This document shows, in pieces, positions 3,766 to 9,918 of a stretch of 19,269 nt of DNA (its first letter is position 1; each line of letters starts with the position of its first letter). The notes under the pieces were generated by a model. That model saw only the letters and a list, made by a program, of their open reading frames with translations. It did not search any database and was not told where the DNA came from. Position numbers and translations under genes: made by a program. Where the stretch lies: IMG/VR virus record IMGVR_UViG_3300029186_000016, positions 1 through 19,269 of that record. One strand, written 5' to 3'. Source of the DNA: a virus (taxonomy: Duplodnaviria > Heunggongvirae > Uroviricota > Caudoviricetes).

Positions 3766-3885
3766 ATATTTAGACTAAAGAGTTTGTAACGCTATGTAAG
3801 TGATTTTTTCTGGTTTAGATATTTATATGTCCGGCCAAATTGAGGTGTGTTTAAATGTTATTGCACATTGATTGTAGGGGGAATA

Positions 3886-4065
3886 ATGAAAAACGCATTG
3901 CAGTTTTTGTTTGTTGCGTTCTGGTTGTTCGCATCATGTATGCCCATCATCTTCACAGCAAGGTATATGGAAAAAATTGATGTTTTGATATTAATGTTTG
4001 GACATATAAATGCCCTTTTTTTAGGGGTGTTCATGGCGGTCATGTGCATTGAATACTGGCGGTAA
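3886..4065 (+). CDS. Small two-helix membrane protein (59 aa) in an AT-rich islet
   Basis: Internal ATG at 3886 preceded by a GGGGGAA SD. Two hydrophobic segments (ALQFLFVAFWLFASCMPIIF and IDVLILMFGHINALFLGVFMAVMCI). The 3847 start in the track lacks an SD. Confidence 0.45.
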   Translation: MKNALQFLFVAFWLFASCMPIIFTARYMEKIDVLILMFGHINALFLGVFMAVMCIEYWR

Positions 4066-4120
4066 ATACAGCGAACGCCATTGGTTTAGTTGGATATTTA
4101 CTGTGCCGGACAAAAACGGT

Positions 4121-4148
4121 TTGCGGGGAAATCTTAGTTAAGTAGAAT
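4121..4148 (+). promoter_or_regulatory. Candidate sigma70 promoter for the hok/mok mRNA (-35 TTGCGG, 16-bp spacer, -10 TAGAAT)
   Basis: Hexamers read directly from sequence, about 120 nt upstream of mok, consistent with the long structured leader typical of hok mRNAs. Confidence 0.3.
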
Positions 4149-4219
4149 AACTGCGGGTGCTTGAGGCTATCTGTCTCAGGCATGAACACCAAAAGGCAGA
4201 TAGAGAAAAGCCCCAGTTA

Positions 4220-4276
4220 ACATTACGCGTCCTGCAAGACGCTTAACATTAATCTGAGGCCCAATCTATGTCTCAC
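4220..4276 (-). ncRNA. Candidate Sok-like antisense RNA
   Basis: Minus-strand promoter-like hexamers inside the mok 5' end (-35 TTGCCT = plus 4306-4311, 17-bp spacer, -10 TAACCT = plus 4283-4288) would start a transcript about 9 nt into mok running antisense to the leader, as in known hok/sok loci. Contains hairpin GCGTC-n6-GACGC (plus 4227-4242). No clear U-tract terminator, so ends are uncertain. Confidence 0.3.
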
Positions 4277-4480
4277 AAATGTAGGTTAGCCTCTTACGTG
4301 CCGAAAGGCAAGGAGAAGCAGGCTATGAAGCAGCAAAAGGCGATGTTAATCGCCCTGATCGTCATCTGTTTAACCGTCATAGTGACGGCACTGGTAACGA
4401 GGAAAGACCTCTGCGAGGTACGAATCCGAACCGGCCAGATGGAGGTTGCTGTTTTCGTAGACTACGAATCTAGAGAGTAA
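4268..4480 (+). CDS. mok: mok-like reading frame (in-frame N-terminal extension of hok, 70 aa)
   Basis: ORF begins 57 nt upstream of the hok ATG in the same frame, as I recall for the chromosomal mokC/hokC and mokB/hokB pairs. Confidence 0.45.
   Translation: MSHKCRLASYVPKGKEKQAMKQQKAMLIALIVICLTVIVTALVTRKDLCEVRIRTGQMEVAVFVDYESRE
4325..4480 (+). CDS. hok: Hok/Gef-family type I toxin (51 aa)
   Basis: MKQQKAMLIALIVICLTVIVTALVTRKDLCEVRIRTGQMEVAVFVDYESRE has one N-terminal TM helix and the conserved RKDLCEV...EVA...YES signature of Hok/Gef/RelF proteins. GGAG SD upstream. Confidence 0.85.
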   Translation: MKQQKAMLIALIVICLTVIVTALVTRKDLCEVRIRTGQMEVAVFVDYESRE

Positions 4481-4488
4481 GAGTGACC

Positions 4489-4512
4489 TGGCGGGAGAGT
4501 AATCTCCCGCCA
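4489..4512 (+). other. Perfect 10-bp hairpin (TGGCGGGAGA-GTAA-TCTCCCGCCA) 9 nt after the hok stop
   Basis: Read directly. Not followed by a T-tract, so it is more likely an mRNA 3' stability or fold-back element than an intrinsic terminator. A T-rich run follows at about 4564-4579. Confidence 0.5.
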
Positions 4513-4696
4513 CCTCTGATGTGTCGGCATCCTCAACGCACCCGCACTTAACCCGCTTCGACGGTTTTTGTTTTATTTTCAATGCGTTTTAACTTTTTTA
4601 AGACACCGGATATAGAATCCAAAACACTTAAGTAGCGCGCAGGGATAAGAGGGATGGCCCCCTGAAGGGGAGAGCTAATTATCCGGAAGGATTCTG

Positions 4697-4960
4697 ATGA
4701 TGAACATCGAAGAACTGCGTAAAATTTTTTGTGAAGATGGCCTCTATGCTGTGTGCGTTGAAAATGGAAATATTGTTAGTCATTGCCGCGTTCTGTGTTT
4801 GCGAAAGAAGCAAAGAAAGAGTGGGGCTGCGTTAATTAATTTTGTGGATGCTCGGGTGACGGACGGATTTATCTTGCGCGACGATGAGTTTGCCACTTCA
4901 TTACAGGCATTGAAAGAGATCGGAATAAAAGCTGGCTTTTCTGCTTTTTCAGAAGAATAA
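4697..4960 (+). CDS. Hypothetical small protein (87 aa), positionally equivalent to the small gene next to hokD in Qin-type prophages
   Basis: ORF with GGAAGGA SD. Identity to rem not verified; the context resemblance is from memory. Confidence 0.5.
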   Translation: MMNIEELRKIFCEDGLYAVCVENGNIVSHCRVLCLRKKQRKSGAALINFVDARVTDGFILRDDEFATSLQALKEIGIKAGFSAFSEE

Positions 4961-9041: not shown

Positions 9042-9117
9042 GGCCCTTTAGCTCAGTGGTGAGAGCGAGCGACTCATAATCGCCAGGTCGCTGGTTCAAA
9101 TCCAGCAAGGGCCACCA
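9042..9117 (+). tRNA. ileZ: tRNA with anticodon CAU; resembles tRNA-Ile2 (lysidine type), though Met cannot be excluded from the anticodon alone
   Basis: Cloverleaf folded by hand: acceptor GGCCCTT/AAGGGCC, D-stem GCTC/GAGC, anticodon loop CTCATAA, T-loop TTCAAAT, encoded CCA. Sequence resembles E. coli ileX as I recall it. Confidence 0.8.
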
Positions 9118-9124
9118 TCACATA

Positions 9125-9201
9125 CCGCCATTAGCTCATCAGGATAGAGCGCCAGCCTTCGAAGCTGGTTGCGCGGGGTTCGAGTCCTCGATGGCGGTCC
9201 A
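9125..9201 (+). tRNA. argN: tRNA-Arg (anticodon UCG)
   Basis: Cloverleaf folded by hand: acceptor CCGCCAT/ATGGCGG (unusual C1:G72), D-stem GCTC/GAGC, anticodon stem CCAGC/GCTGG with loop CTTCGAA, T-loop TTCGAGT, encoded CCA. Confidence 0.75.
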
Positions 9202-9214
9202 TTATCTGTACCCT

Positions 9215-9291
9215 GCGTTGTTAGCTCAGCCGGACAGAGCAATTGCCTTCTAAGCAATCGGTCACTGGTTCGAATCCAGTACAACGCGCCA
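9215..9291 (+). tRNA. argO: tRNA-Arg (anticodon UCU)
   Basis: Cloverleaf folded by hand: acceptor GCGTTGT/ACAACGC, D-stem GCTC/GAGC, anticodon stem ATTGC/GCAAT with loop CTTCTAA, T-loop TTCGAAT, encoded CCA. Confidence 0.85.
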
Positions 9292-9331: not shown

Positions 9332-9526
9332 AAATGTCTCACAATTCAGACGGTTGACTGTTGTCTGGTTGGCGGGGAGTTTGTTAAAAGAAACTGGCAT
9401 GGTGAATCCCCCTGTGCGGAGGGGCAATCAGCGAGTAGGTATATGGGATAATCGCGGATTCAGGTGCTGGTACTGAATTCACCGGGAGGCACCCGGCACC
9501 ATGCAATGGCACATAGCGCCACTCTC

Positions 9527-9562
9527 CAGCCCCTCTCCGGAGGGGCTGTTTATATTGATTTT
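9527..9562 (+). terminator. Strong GC hairpin plus T-rich tract (plus-strand terminator; also lies 3' of the minus-strand ORF)
   Basis: Perfect 9-bp stem CAGCCCCTC-TCCG-GAGGGGCTG followed by TTTATATTGATTTT. Confidence 0.65.
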
Positions 9563-9582: not shown

Positions 9583-9918
9583 TTATGGACTTTGTTGTTT
9601 TAGCCCATAAGGACATATTTGCAGAGTGCAACGGTTATTAAAGCATTCATTCAATACGTTATCTGTATTTGTAGGGCATTCCTGGCTGTTTTTGATTAAA
9701 TTCCAGAATGTTTTATTGAATGGTACTACGTTGTAAATGGTTACAGGTAGCACTTTGTTATTGAGCATGATGCCTGTGTGAGTCAGTGTAAATATACTTT
9801 CAGGAGGTAAGAAAGCATCCGATTGATACCAGATTATTAATTTTATTTTACTCCATATGACTGAAAAAGATATTCCGCATGATGGCTGGATAACTGTATC
9901 AATCACAATCCACTTCAT
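9583..9918 (-). CDS. Hypothetical protein (111 aa), AT-rich cargo gene on the opposite strand
   Basis: Only long ORF in a visibly AT-rich stretch. AAGGAAA SD 6 nt upstream of the ATG on the minus strand. Stop TAA. No recognisable motif or signal peptide. Confidence 0.45.

What the first reader, a model, noticed from the sequence alone, without database searches (positions are those of the whole stretch)
4066..4600. Intact-looking hok/mok type I toxin locus with candidate sok antisense promoter and a perfect 3' hairpin
The 51-aa ORF at 4325..4480 has the Hok/Gef/RelF signature, with an in-frame upstream mok-like extension from 4268. On the minus strand, promoter-like hexamers (TTGCCT, 17 bp, TAACCT) sit inside the first 45 nt of mok, exactly where Sok promoters lie in known loci. 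A perfect 10-bp hairpin follows the stop at 4489-4512, and direct repeats TTAACATTA (4217-4225 and 4243-4251) flank a small hairpin in the leader. Many chromosomal hok loci are decayed, whereas this one looks complete. It sits in the prophage early/nin region, where it could act in prophage maintenance or abortive infection.
Basis: partly seen in the sequence, partly recalled or inferred. Interest (0 to 1): 0.5.

Follow-up and report, generated by a model that had tools for sequence, protein, structure and literature searches.

The report
Prophage hok/mok/sok toxin-antitoxin cassette
This is a complete copy of a well-known small "host-killing" toxin gene (hok) with its antisense-RNA antidote (sok), carried in a lambda-like prophage of E. 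coli; it is a close allele of the already characterised hokW-sokW and hokD loci, so it is ordinary.

Summary
The peptide is a Hok/Gef family member (Pfam 78.7 bits, cut-off 22). The leader 4155-4330 matches the Rfam hok/sok model RF01794 (120 bits, cut-off 59).

The 535-bp stretch is 100% identical in six complete E. coli chromosomes. It is about 93% identical to thousands of loci annotated hokD. [quoted passage not shown]

All the regulatory RNA elements of the R1 paradigm can be placed:
- tac 4155-4166 pairs with fbi 4531-4543, with compensatory covariation across 31 related loci.
- A 5' metastable hairpin is predicted.
- An ucb anti-SD sequesters the mok SD.
- Sok is a 71-nt antisense RNA (4276 to 4206), and its promoter hexamers and spacer match those of the mutationally tested sokW promoter.
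- The 10-bp hairpin corresponds to the family's conserved 3' hairpin, which protects the processed mRNA in R1.

Two caveats apply. The sok promoter hexamers match consensus at only 7 of 12 positions, which is chance level on their own. The intrinsic terminator is degenerate in this allele.

Verdict: interpretation supported, already known, low interest.

The parts
4121..4148 (+). Candidate hok/mok mRNA promoter: -35 TTGCGG (4121-4126), 16-nt spacer, -10 TAGAAT (4143-4148); +1 about G4155
   Evidence: Read from sequence. A -10-like hexamer (TAGAAT/TATAAT/TACAAT/TATATT) sits at a fixed 6 nt before GGG[U/C]GCUUGAGG in the related loci. It matches consensus at only 8 of 12 positions and was not reported by the scan. 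The transcription start is inferred from the start of the Rfam model.
4155..4166 (+). tac (translational activator element), 5' end of hok mRNA: GGGUGCUUGAGG
   Evidence: Start of the Rfam RF01794 match. It pairs with 4531-4543 in the MFE fold of the full-length RNA. Compensatory changes occur in relatives.
4157..4183 (+). Predicted 5' metastable hairpin of the nascent transcript (tac 4157-4167 pairs with 4173-4183)
   Evidence: The MFE of 4155-4185 is -16.9 kcal/mol with an 11-bp stem. This corresponds to the metastable structure described for R1 hok mRNA (PMC9841398). Prediction only.
4208..4216 (+). ucb / anti-SD box (AAGCCCCAG). It pairs with the mok SD in the full-length RNA and with tac in the processed RNA.
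   Evidence: In the full-length MFE, 4210-4216 pairs with 4254-4260. The tac/ucb stem is the first helix of the Rfam model. Enforcing tac/ucb costs 2.3 kcal/mol in the truncated RNA. The full open form (tac/ucb plus SD/dcb) costs 10.3 kcal/mol in the truncated RNA and 17.8 in the full-length RNA.
4206..4276 (-). Predicted Sok antisense RNA, 71 nt: a 14-nt single-stranded 5' tail, a long imperfect hairpin and a CUUUU tail. It covers the mok SD and AUG.
   Evidence: Maps onto the annotated 71-nt sokW misc_RNA of 933W. It has the same predicted fold (-29.2 against -29.9 kcal/mol) and 7 differences, 6 of them in the first 16 nt. The transcript itself was not observed here.
4217..4251 (+). TTAACATTA direct repeats (4217-4225, 4243-4251) flanking the apical GCGTC/GACGC hairpin. 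Together they form the upper part of the Sok terminator stem (its complement in hok mRNA).
   Evidence: Folds. It shows as a 16-nt insert relative to the Rfam consensus. It is shared by 933W and other Escherichia prophage alleles, and the apical stem covaries in L027/L028.
4256..4259 (+). mok Shine-Dalgarno GAGG
   Evidence: It lies 8 nt before ATG 4268. GAGG is invariant in the 32-locus alignment. It is sequestered by ucb in the full-length fold.
4268..4480 (+). mok ORF (70 aa), in frame with hok and sharing its stop
   Evidence: The architecture is the same as annotated mokW/hokW of 933W. In the R1-type plasmid locus, mok is in a different frame.
4283..4311 (-). sok promoter: -35 TTGCCT (4311-4306), 17 nt, -10 TAACCT (4288-4283)
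   Evidence: Aligns as identical to 933W across the hexamers and spacer, 4283-4311. The sokW -10 TAACCT was replaced in the promoter-less construct, which lost antitoxin activity (PMC8621323; primers, results). It matches consensus at only 7 of 12 positions.
4290..4294 (+). dcb (GCCUC), partner of the mok SD region in the open, Sok-accessible hairpin
   Evidence: Third helix of the Rfam model. AGCCUCUUAC is nearly invariant across loci. The pairing is not the MFE in my folds.
4325..4480 (+). hok toxin ORF, 51 aa, preceded by SD AGGAG (4311-4315)
   Evidence: Pfam PF01848 at 78.7 bits. PHROG 251 'MokW-like host killing'. 48 of 51 residues identical to HokW and 46 of 51 to K-12-type HokD. RefSeq WP_050487771.1.
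4458..4472 (+). Candidate TadA A-to-I editing site: Tyr47 codon UAC (4463-4465, A4464) in UACG. A possible 4-bp stem UAGA/UCUA would present the loop CUACGAA.
   Evidence: UACGAA is invariant in all 32 loci, and the flanking stem covaries (C-G/U-A 17:15, G-C/A-U 20:9). Editing of the homologous Tyr of hokC/D/E in K-12 is reported in PMC5630033. The tRNA-like hairpin is only -0.2 kcal/mol, against -3.6 for a competing local stem. Inference only.
4489..4512 (+). Perfect 10-bp GC-rich hairpin with GUAA loop: the likely 3'-end hairpin of the processed (truncated) hok mRNA
   Evidence: Sequence. The hairpin is conserved in all related loci, with some compensatory changes. In R1, the last stem-loop of the truncated mRNA protects it from 3'-5' exonucleases (PMC9841398).
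4531..4543 (+). fbi (fold-back inhibitory element) CCUCAACGCACCC, complementary to tac with one bulged C
   Evidence: Duplex of -21.5 kcal/mol, reached by 2 of 1000 shuffles. An equivalent element starts 45-56 nt after the stop in 30 of 32 loci. Covariation: U-A in 18 loci against C-G in 11.
4552..4579 (+). Degenerate intrinsic terminator: CCCGC-UUCG-ACGG followed by a T-rich run
   Evidence: Relatives carry CCCGCUUCGGCGGG plus a U-run (-12.8 to -17 kcal/mol). This allele has a G-to-A change and one G fewer, giving -3.1 kcal/mol. The terminator scan did not report it.

Best explanation
The locus is a complete hok/mok/sok type I toxin-antitoxin cassette of the prophage hokW/hokD subfamily. It sits as a self-contained 'moron' in the nin region of a lambdoid prophage.

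Mechanism, taken from the R1 paradigm and mapped onto this sequence:
1. A constitutive promoter makes a stable mRNA of about 400 nt starting near G4155.
2. While nascent, the 5' end folds into a metastable hairpin.
3. When complete, the 5' tac pairs with the 3' fbi and ucb masks the mok SD, so the RNA is neither translated nor bound by Sok.
4. Slow 3' trimming back to the 10-bp hairpin (4489-4512) removes fbi. tac then switches to ucb, and the mok translation-initiation region opens.
5. The unstable 71-nt Sok RNA (4276 to 4206) pairs with it through its single-stranded 5' tail. The duplex is destroyed by RNase III.
6. When Sok is no longer replenished, mok is translated. Coupled translation of hok then gives a 51-aa inner-membrane peptide that collapses the membrane potential.

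Shown here: family membership, presence and placement of every element, and predicted plus covariation-supported pairings.

Inferred: transcripts, processing, toxicity and the trigger.

Most likely biological role: help with host lysis and phage release on prophage induction, by analogy with the 93%-identical hokW-sokW. Prophage retention and phage exclusion remain possible.
For: - Peptide family: Pfam HOK_GEF 78.7 bits against a cut-off of 22; PHROG 251 'MokW-like host killing', E = 1.8e-31.
- Leader RNA: Rfam RF01794 at 120.1 bits against 59, full-length match 4155-4330. This is higher than 933W (113.5) and the R1-type plasmid locus (88.9).
- Distribution: 100% identity to six complete E. 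coli chromosomes, about 93% to loci annotated hokD, with matches in 4938 of 5426 genomes.
- Closest characterised relative: 92.6% identity to 933W hokW/mokW/sokW, which carries an annotated sokW RNA.
- Folding: the full-length MFE pairs 4155-4166 with 4531-4543 and 4210-4216 with 4254-4260. The nascent hairpin is -16.9 kcal/mol. tac/ucb costs 2.3 kcal/mol after removal of fbi; the full open form costs 10.3 in the truncated RNA and 17.8 in the full-length RNA.
- Covariation: an equivalent tac/fbi duplex is found in 30 of 32 related loci with compensatory changes. RNAalifold keeps tac/fbi, the ucb/SD hairpin and the 3' hairpin, and 18 pairs show double changes.
- Experiments on the relative: HokW is toxic; sokW neutralises it from its own promoter and partly needs RNase III and Hfq; sokW disappears and HokW appears after mitomycin C; deletion halves phage release (PMC8621323).
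- R1 regulatory model: PMC9841398.
Against: - No expression data exist for this locus.
- Both promoters are weak matches to consensus (7 and 8 of 12). Neither was found by the scan, and such matches are common.
- The unconstrained MFE of the truncated RNA keeps the metastable 5' hairpin rather than tac/ucb. Enforcing tac/ucb alone still leaves the mok SD in a small local stem. The SD/dcb hairpin costs a further 8 kcal/mol in my folds.
- The intrinsic terminator is degenerate in this allele, so the 3' end and the full-length species may differ from the model.
- According to the literature summarised, chromosomal hokA/B/C loci with intact-looking elements did not mediate post-segregational killing.
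- Hok differs from HokW at 3 residues (M39, R50, E51), whose effect is unknown.
Confidence: 0.85

Rival explanations
1. The cassette is structurally intact but physiologically silent. It would be a hitch-hiking relic that is transcribed weakly or not at all and contributes nothing to the prophage or the host, like the chromosomal hok loci reported not to give post-segregational killing.
For: - Weak promoter matches.
- Degenerate terminator in this allele.
- Decayed or truncated copies are common in the same genomes: L012, L041, L045 and the relE-hokD copies L013/L039/L050.
- The literature summary says chromosomal hokA/B/C did not mediate killing and were not rifampicin-activated.
Against: - Every element of a multi-part RNA switch is preserved. 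Pairings are maintained by compensatory changes across genera, which indicates purifying selection on regulation.
- The 93%-identical hokW-sokW is expressed from the Sp5 prophage and has a measurable phenotype.
- The sok promoter hexamers and spacer are identical to the functional sokW promoter.
Confidence: 0.15
2. The cassette is active, but its main role is prophage addiction (killing of cells that lose the prophage) or abortive infection against superinfecting phages. This is what the first reader proposed, as opposed to help with lysis on induction.
For: - The R1 hok/sok system is the paradigm of post-segregational killing, and its overexpression protected against T4 (summary).
- hok genes are about four-fold enriched in prophages.
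- The stable-mRNA / unstable-antisense logic responds to any shut-off of host transcription.
Against: - The only experiment on a close relative found a role in induction-linked lysis and phage release, and no growth effect of deletion under normal conditions.
- hok is not enriched next to defence systems.
Confidence: 0.3
3. The ORF and hairpins are a chance resemblance, or a different small membrane-protein gene rather than a hok locus.
For: None found. The only support is that short hydrophobic ORFs and 7-of-12 promoter matches are common.
Against: Pfam, PHROG and Rfam all match far above threshold. The locus aligns nearly identically to annotated hokW/mokW/sokW.
Confidence: 0.01

Closest known systems
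hokW-mokW-sokW of Stx2 phage 933W / Sakai prophage Sp5 (AF125520; Takada et al. 2021, PMC8621323)
   Same: - 92.6% DNA identity over 4112-4553.
- Hok is identical at 48 of 51 residues, including the C-terminal VFVDYES variant.
- mok is in frame.
- Sok is 71 nt with the same fold and the same 16-nt apical extension and TTAACATTA arms.
- The sok promoter hexamers and spacer, the tac, the fbi and the stem length of the 3' hairpin are the same.
   Different: - Six of the seven Sok differences fall in its first 16 nt, so mok codons 2-4 read SHK instead of LNT.
- Hok has M39, R50 and E51 where HokW has T39, E50 and K51.
- Genome position differs: the nin region here, against near attR after the tail genes in 933W.
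- Sequence downstream of fbi is unrelated: a degenerate terminator here and no similar sequence in 933W.
hokD (relF) of the Qin prophage, E. coli K-12 type (relB-relE-hokD)
   Same: - Hok is identical at 46 of 51 residues.
- The coding region, 3' hairpin, fbi and downstream sequence are homologous.
- The prophage type is the same: dicB, ydfA/C, dicA and dicC are in the neighbourhood.
- PGAP names the 93%-identical full-length loci 'hokD'.
   Different: The K-12-type copy (L013/L039/L050) has relE immediately upstream. It lacks the promoter, tac, ucb, sok and mok start, and gets no Rfam hit. The window copy has all of these. The C-terminus is VFVDYESRE here and VFTAYEPEE there.
hok/mok/sok (parB) of plasmid R1 and IncF relatives (example pHK23a, L054)
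   Same: - It has the same set of elements in the same order: tac, ucb, mok SD, sok promoter inside mok, hok, a GC-rich 3' hairpin and fbi (model).
- Both match RF01794 and PF01848.
- Both carry the UACGAA Tyr codon near the C-terminus.
   Different: - Protein identity is only about 42%.
- mok is in a different reading frame from hok in the R1 type, but in frame here.
- The Sok-terminator hairpin lacks the apical extension.
- The R1 system is plasmid-borne with a proven post-segregational killing role. This one is prophage-borne.
hokC (gef)/mokC/sokC-type chromosomal loci (L017-L026)
   Same: mok is in frame, and tac/fbi and the 3' hairpin are the same. Hok is identical at 38 of 51 positions in ungapped comparison.
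   Different: These loci lack the 18-nt apical extension of the Sok hairpin. They have G-U wobble in tac/fbi. They lie in the core chromosome rather than in a prophage.

Membership tests
Hok/Gef toxin family (Pfam PF01848) | A peptide of about 50 aa with an N-terminal transmembrane helix and the conserved C-terminal periplasmic motif (…TRKxLCE…E-V-A…YE…) | tested here: met
   78.7 bits against a gathering cut-off of 22, profile positions 1-42 of 42. PHROG 251 E = 1.8e-31. 94% identical to HokW.
hok/sok type I TA locus (Rfam RF01794; R1 parB paradigm) | Structured 5' leader of hok mRNA: tac/ucb stem, complement of the Sok terminator hairpin, Sok-target hairpin (mok SD/dcb), and a small hairpin before the hok SD | tested here: met
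   The covariance model gives 120.1 bits against 59, positions 1-157 of 157, at 4155-4330.
hok/sok type I TA locus | Overlapping mok reading frame, with its own SD, starting upstream of hok and required for hok translation | tested here: met
   ATG 4268 with GAGG 8 nt upstream gives a 70-aa ORF that runs through hok in frame, as annotated for mokW. Translational coupling itself is not testable here.
hok/sok type I TA locus | cis-encoded antisense Sok RNA with its promoter inside mok, a single-stranded 5' tail complementary to the mok translation-initiation region, and a terminator hairpin | tested here: met
   It is homologous to the annotated 71-nt sokW. The promoter hexamers and spacer are identical, and the predicted fold is the same. 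This is met at sequence level only: the hexamers are 7 of 12 to consensus and no transcript data exist.
hok/sok type I TA locus | Long-range 5'-3' pairing (tac/fbi) that locks the full-length mRNA | tested here: met
   Twelve base pairs with one bulge between 4155-4166 and 4531-4543 in the MFE. Duplex of -21.5 kcal/mol, reached by 2 of 1000 shuffles. Compensatory U-A/C-G (18:11), and G-C/A-U at the twelfth tac position, across loci.
hok/sok type I TA locus | Stable hairpin just 3' of hok that defines and protects the 3' end of the processed, active mRNA | tested here: met
   Perfect 10-bp stem at 4489-4512. It is conserved in all 32 loci, with some double changes. Its function is known from R1 mutagenesis. 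Processing itself is not testable here.
hok/sok type I TA locus | Refolding of the truncated mRNA into the open (tac/ucb, SD/dcb) conformation | tested here: inconclusive
   The unconstrained MFE of 4155-4516 keeps the 5' metastable hairpin. The tac/ucb form is 2.3 kcal/mol above the MFE. Adding SD/dcb puts it 10.3 above, against 17.8 when fbi is present. The direction of the effect fits the model, but the open state is not predicted as the ground state.
hok/sok type I TA locus | Toxicity of Hok and neutralisation by Sok; unstable antitoxin and stable toxin mRNA | not testable with these tools
   Shown for the 93%-identical hokW-sokW (PMC8621323). Not shown for this allele.
Prophage hokD/hokW subfamily | Intrinsic terminator CCCGC-UUCG-GCGGG plus a U-run a few nt after fbi. 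It is present in the nin-region alleles but not in 933W. | tested here: not met
   The window has CCCGC-UUCG-ACGG, which leaves only a 3-bp stem in the fold (-3.1 kcal/mol, against -12.8 to -17 in L006-L023). This is not a defining feature of the wider family, since 933W lacks it.
TadA-edited hok mRNAs (Bar-Yaacov et al. 2017) | Tyr codon UAC followed by G (UACG) at the C-terminal conserved position, presented in a hairpin loop | tested here: inconclusive
   UACGAA is present (4463-4468) and invariant across loci, and the flanking stem covaries. The loop CUACGAA equals the tRNA-Arg2 anticodon loop as I recall it. However, the tRNA-like hairpin is -0.2 kcal/mol, against -3.6 for a competing stem. 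Editing itself is not testable here.

The most novel reading that the evidence does not exclude
The one part of the cassette that varies freely between otherwise near-identical alleles is the Sok 5' recognition tail and its target (4263-4279, mok codons 1-4). Paralogous cassettes in one genome carry different tails. Examples are L004 and L007 in one E. coli genome, and L008 in a Shigella genome that also holds L005 and L010. This could be an 'address code' that keeps up to nine hok/sok cassettes per genome from cross-neutralising each other, so that each prophage's toxin answers only to its own antidote.

In addition, this allele, like hokW, places the editable Tyr47 codon in a loop identical to the tRNA-Arg2 anticodon loop. 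TadA editing (Y47C, completing a Cys30-Cys47 pair) might therefore be an unusually efficient second switch on toxicity.
Probability: 0.25. Interest if true: 0.35.

Novelty: already known. Interest (0 to 1): 0.1.

Why it matters
It matters little beyond correct annotation. RefSeq annotates only the Hok CDS in the identical genomes. The mok ORF, the Sok RNA, the mRNA boundaries and the regulatory elements can now be placed to the nucleotide.

The locus is a convenient natural full-length counterpart of the truncated K-12 hokD. It is also an allele of hokW with a different Sok recognition tail and a broken terminator. It could therefore be used to test Sok specificity between co-resident prophage cassettes, and to test whether 3'-end formation matters for the fold-back lock. 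None of this would surprise a specialist. hok genes are known to be enriched in prophages, and the hokW-sokW relative has been characterised.

Tried and rejected
1. The consensus promoter/terminator scan of 3800-4800 found neither the hok promoter, the sok promoter nor a terminator after fbi. Its thresholds exclude 7-8 of 12 matches, so I relied on homology instead. I also quantified how common such matches are (480 sites).
2. I considered the TTAACATTA direct repeats as a duplication or transposition footprint and rejected that reading. TTAA is self-complementary and the two copies pair as stem arms. The whole segment is shared with 933W and other alleles.
3. I considered the 16-nt insertion relative to the Rfam consensus as a possible novelty and rejected it. 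It is a subfamily-wide apical extension of the Sok hairpin, and its stem covaries in L027/L028.
4. Unconstrained folding of the truncated mRNA did not give the textbook open conformation. Constrained folds show only that removing fbi lowers its cost.
5. The tRNA-like presentation of UACG is not the favoured local fold, so the editing idea stays an inference.
6. Look-up of Steif & Meyer 2012 by DOI failed because the paper is not held.
7. The unannotated 72-aa ORF upstream (3847-4065) matched no Pfam or PHROG family. I left it as a passing note.
8. The sliding entropy analysis among 10 close alleles put the Sok-tail region only third, after two hairpin loops. This is suggestive of diversification but not proof.
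Full report
**Observation.**
- The 51-aa ORF 4325-4480 reads MKQQKAMLIALIVICLTVIVTALVTRKDLCEVRIRTGQMEVAVFVDYESRE.
- An in-frame ATG at 4268 gives a 70-aa mok-like ORF.
- The minus strand carries TTGCCT (4311-4306), 17 nt, then TAACCT (4288-4283).
- A perfect 10-bp stem with a GUAA loop lies at 4489-4512.
- TTAACATTA occurs at 4217-4225 and 4243-4251, around a GCGTC/GACGC hairpin.

The promoter hexamers match the sigma-70 consensus at only 7 of 12 positions. They were not reported by the consensus scan, and 480 sites of equal quality exist on the two strands of the window. By themselves they are at chance level.

**Identity.**
- The peptide scores 78.7 bits against Pfam HOK_GEF, cut-off 22. It also hits PHROG 251, 'MokW-like host killing'.
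- The plus-strand leader 4155-4330 matches the whole Rfam model RF01794 at 120.1 bits, cut-off 59. That is higher than the 933W locus (113.5), a Photorhabdus locus (103.3) and an R1-type IncF plasmid locus (88.9).
- The 535-bp stretch is 100% identical in six complete E. coli chromosomes, where only a 'Hok/Gef family protein' CDS is annotated.
- It is about 93% identical to loci annotated hokD. 4938 of 5426 complete E. coli genomes hold a match, with up to nine places per genome.
- Among phages it is 92.6% identical to the hokW/mokW/sokW locus of 933W, where the antisense RNA is annotated.
- Hok is identical at 48 of 51 residues to HokW and at 46 of 51 to K-12-type HokD. It is about 42% identical to R1-type Hok.

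**Context.** In the identical genome, the locus lies in an apparently complete lambdoid prophage integrated beside potC.
- Upstream are the integrase, excisionase, exonuclease, dicB, dicA/dicC and replication genes.
- Next come a string of small nin-type genes, the hok locus, DUF968, RusA and a DUF1133 protein.
- Downstream are a methyltransferase, three tRNAs, the lysis genes, terminase and portal.

The 'early/nin region' placement is therefore right. In 933W the same cassette sits elsewhere, near attR. Homology between the two covers only about 4112-4553. The cassette thus behaves as a self-contained moron.

**Anatomy.** The R1 regulatory model (summarised in PMC9841398) maps element by element.
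- hok promoter: a candidate TTGCGG-16-TAGAAT precedes G4155. A -10-like hexamer stands at the same distance from GGG[U/C]GCUUGAGG in the related loci.
- Metastable hairpin: the nascent 5' end is predicted to form an 11-bp hairpin (4157-4167 with 4173-4183, -16.9 kcal/mol).
- Full-length lock: in the full-length RNA the MFE pairs tac 4155-4166 with fbi 4531-4543 (12 bp, one bulge). It also pairs ucb 4210-4216 with the mok SD region 4254-4260.
- tac/fbi strength: the duplex is -21.5 kcal/mol, and only 2 of 1000 shuffled 3' UTRs reach that value.
- tac/fbi in relatives: in 50 related loci from Escherichia, Shigella, Kluyvera, Citrobacter, Pantoea, Photorhabdus and others, an equivalent duplex starts 45-56 nt after the stop in 30 of the 32 loci that have a tac.
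- Covariation: tac position 4 and its partner switch together, U-A in 18 loci and C-G in 11. Position 12 switches G-C to A-U.
- Consensus fold: RNAalifold on the 32-locus alignment keeps tac/fbi, the ucb/SD hairpin, the 3' hairpin and a small hairpin around the UACG codon. Eighteen pairs show double changes.

**The 10-bp hairpin.** It is the family-conserved stem directly after hok. In R1 the corresponding last stem-loop of the processed mRNA protects it from 3'-5' exonucleases. Trimming back to it would remove fbi. Enforcing the tac/ucb stem costs 2.3 kcal/mol in the truncated RNA. The full open form (tac/ucb plus SD/dcb) costs 17.8 kcal/mol in the full-length RNA and 10.3 in the truncated one. 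The open form is not the predicted ground state.

**Sok.** The annotated 71-nt sokW maps onto 4276 to 4206.
- The predicted fold is a 14-nt free 5' tail, a long imperfect hairpin and a CUUUU end. This matches sokW (-29.2 against -29.9 kcal/mol).
- The 'direct repeats' are the arms of this hairpin. TTAA pairs with TTAA, and CA/CA forms an internal loop.
- The small hairpin between the repeats is an apical extension. It is absent from the Rfam consensus and from the hokC-type and Photorhabdus loci. It is shared by 933W and other Escherichia prophage alleles and covaries in L027/L028.
- The hexamers and spacer (4283-4311) are identical to 933W.
- In PMC8621323 the promoter-less construct replaced exactly this -10 (primers YO-421/422). 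That construct lost protection, and sokW supplied in trans partly restored it.

**Function.** For hokW-sokW the paper shows the following:
- HokW is toxic.
- sokW neutralises it, and this partly depends on RNase III and Hfq.
- After mitomycin C, sokW disappears and HokW appears in the inner membrane in a RecA-dependent way.
- Lysis starts earlier when the locus is present.
- Deleting the locus halves phage release.

By homology I take this as the most likely role here. Prophage addiction and phage exclusion remain possible, and hok genes are about four-fold enriched in prophages. None of this was tested for this allele.

**Differences and blemishes.**
1. mok is in frame with hok, as in mokW and the hokC-type loci, whereas in the R1-type locus it is in another frame.
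2. Six of the seven Sok differences from sokW lie in its first 16 nt, the recognition tail. This segment is among the three most variable in ten close alleles, the other two being hairpin loops.
3. The intrinsic terminator found in nin-region relatives (CCCGCUUCGGCGGG plus U-run, -12.8 to -17 kcal/mol) is reduced to a 3-bp stem here (-3.1 kcal/mol). Read-through into the downstream 87-aa gene is therefore possible. 933W lacks this terminator altogether and its locus still works.
4. The K-12-type hokD copy behind relE lacks the whole 5' half.

**Verdict.** This is an already known kind of locus and a close allele of characterised ones. Its value lies in annotation and as material for small follow-up questions (Sok specificity, terminator loss, TadA editing).

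Noticed in passing
window 4458-4472 (A4464): The Tyr47 codon UAC of hok lies in UACGAA, which is invariant in all 32 related loci. In this allele and in hokW, a 4-bp stem UAGA/UCUA could present the loop CUACGAA. As I recall it, that is identical to the tRNA-Arg2 anticodon loop, the natural TadA substrate. Editing of the homologous Tyr in hokC/D/E is published. The tRNA-like fold is only -0.2 kcal/mol, against -3.6 for a competing UUCGUA/UACGAA stem.
   Followed up: partly
window 4263-4279 (Sok 5' tail / mok codons 1-4): This short segment differs sharply between otherwise near-identical alleles (TCTCACAAATG, CTGAACACATG, CTTTGCACATG, CTAGACACATG and others). Paralogous copies within one genome carry different versions. 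This could keep co-resident Sok RNAs specific to their own hok mRNA.
   Followed up: partly
window 4552-4579: The hok mRNA terminator hairpin is degraded in this allele by a G-to-A change and the loss of one G relative to CCCGCUUCGGCGGG in relatives. Transcription may read through towards the 87-aa gene at 4697-4960, which has its own promoter-like site TTAACT-18-TAGAAT at 4589-4618.
   Followed up: partly
window 3847-4065 (+): An unannotated 72-aa, very hydrophobic ORF (internal ATG gives MKNALQFLFVAFWLFASCMPIIF...) ends just before the finding's stretch, in an AT-rich gap that RefSeq leaves empty. It has no Pfam or PHROG match. It could be a small membrane protein or noise.
   Followed up: partly
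window 9368-9557 (+) and 9042-9288 (+): There is an Rfam STnc100 sRNA match (133 bits). Just upstream are three tRNA genes (annotated Ile, Arg, Arg in the identical genome). They lie between the methyltransferase gene and the lysis region of the prophage.
   Followed up: no
L001 20518-20853 (about window 9583-9918, minus strand): The prophage carries an anti-adapter protein IraM gene and a SASA-family carbohydrate esterase just before the holin. These are typical lambdoid moron cargo.
   Followed up: no
L002 447-535 (phage 933W): Rfam sRNA-Xcc1 matches at 69 bits about 2.4 kb upstream of hokW in 933W. It is unrelated to the finding.
   Followed up: no
L020, L022, L053 (genome-contig hits): Near-identical hok fragments appear on very short contigs labelled Acinetobacter idrijaensis, Xanthomonas pisi and a gut MAG. 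These are most likely E. coli or phage contamination in those assemblies rather than real occurrences.
   Followed up: no
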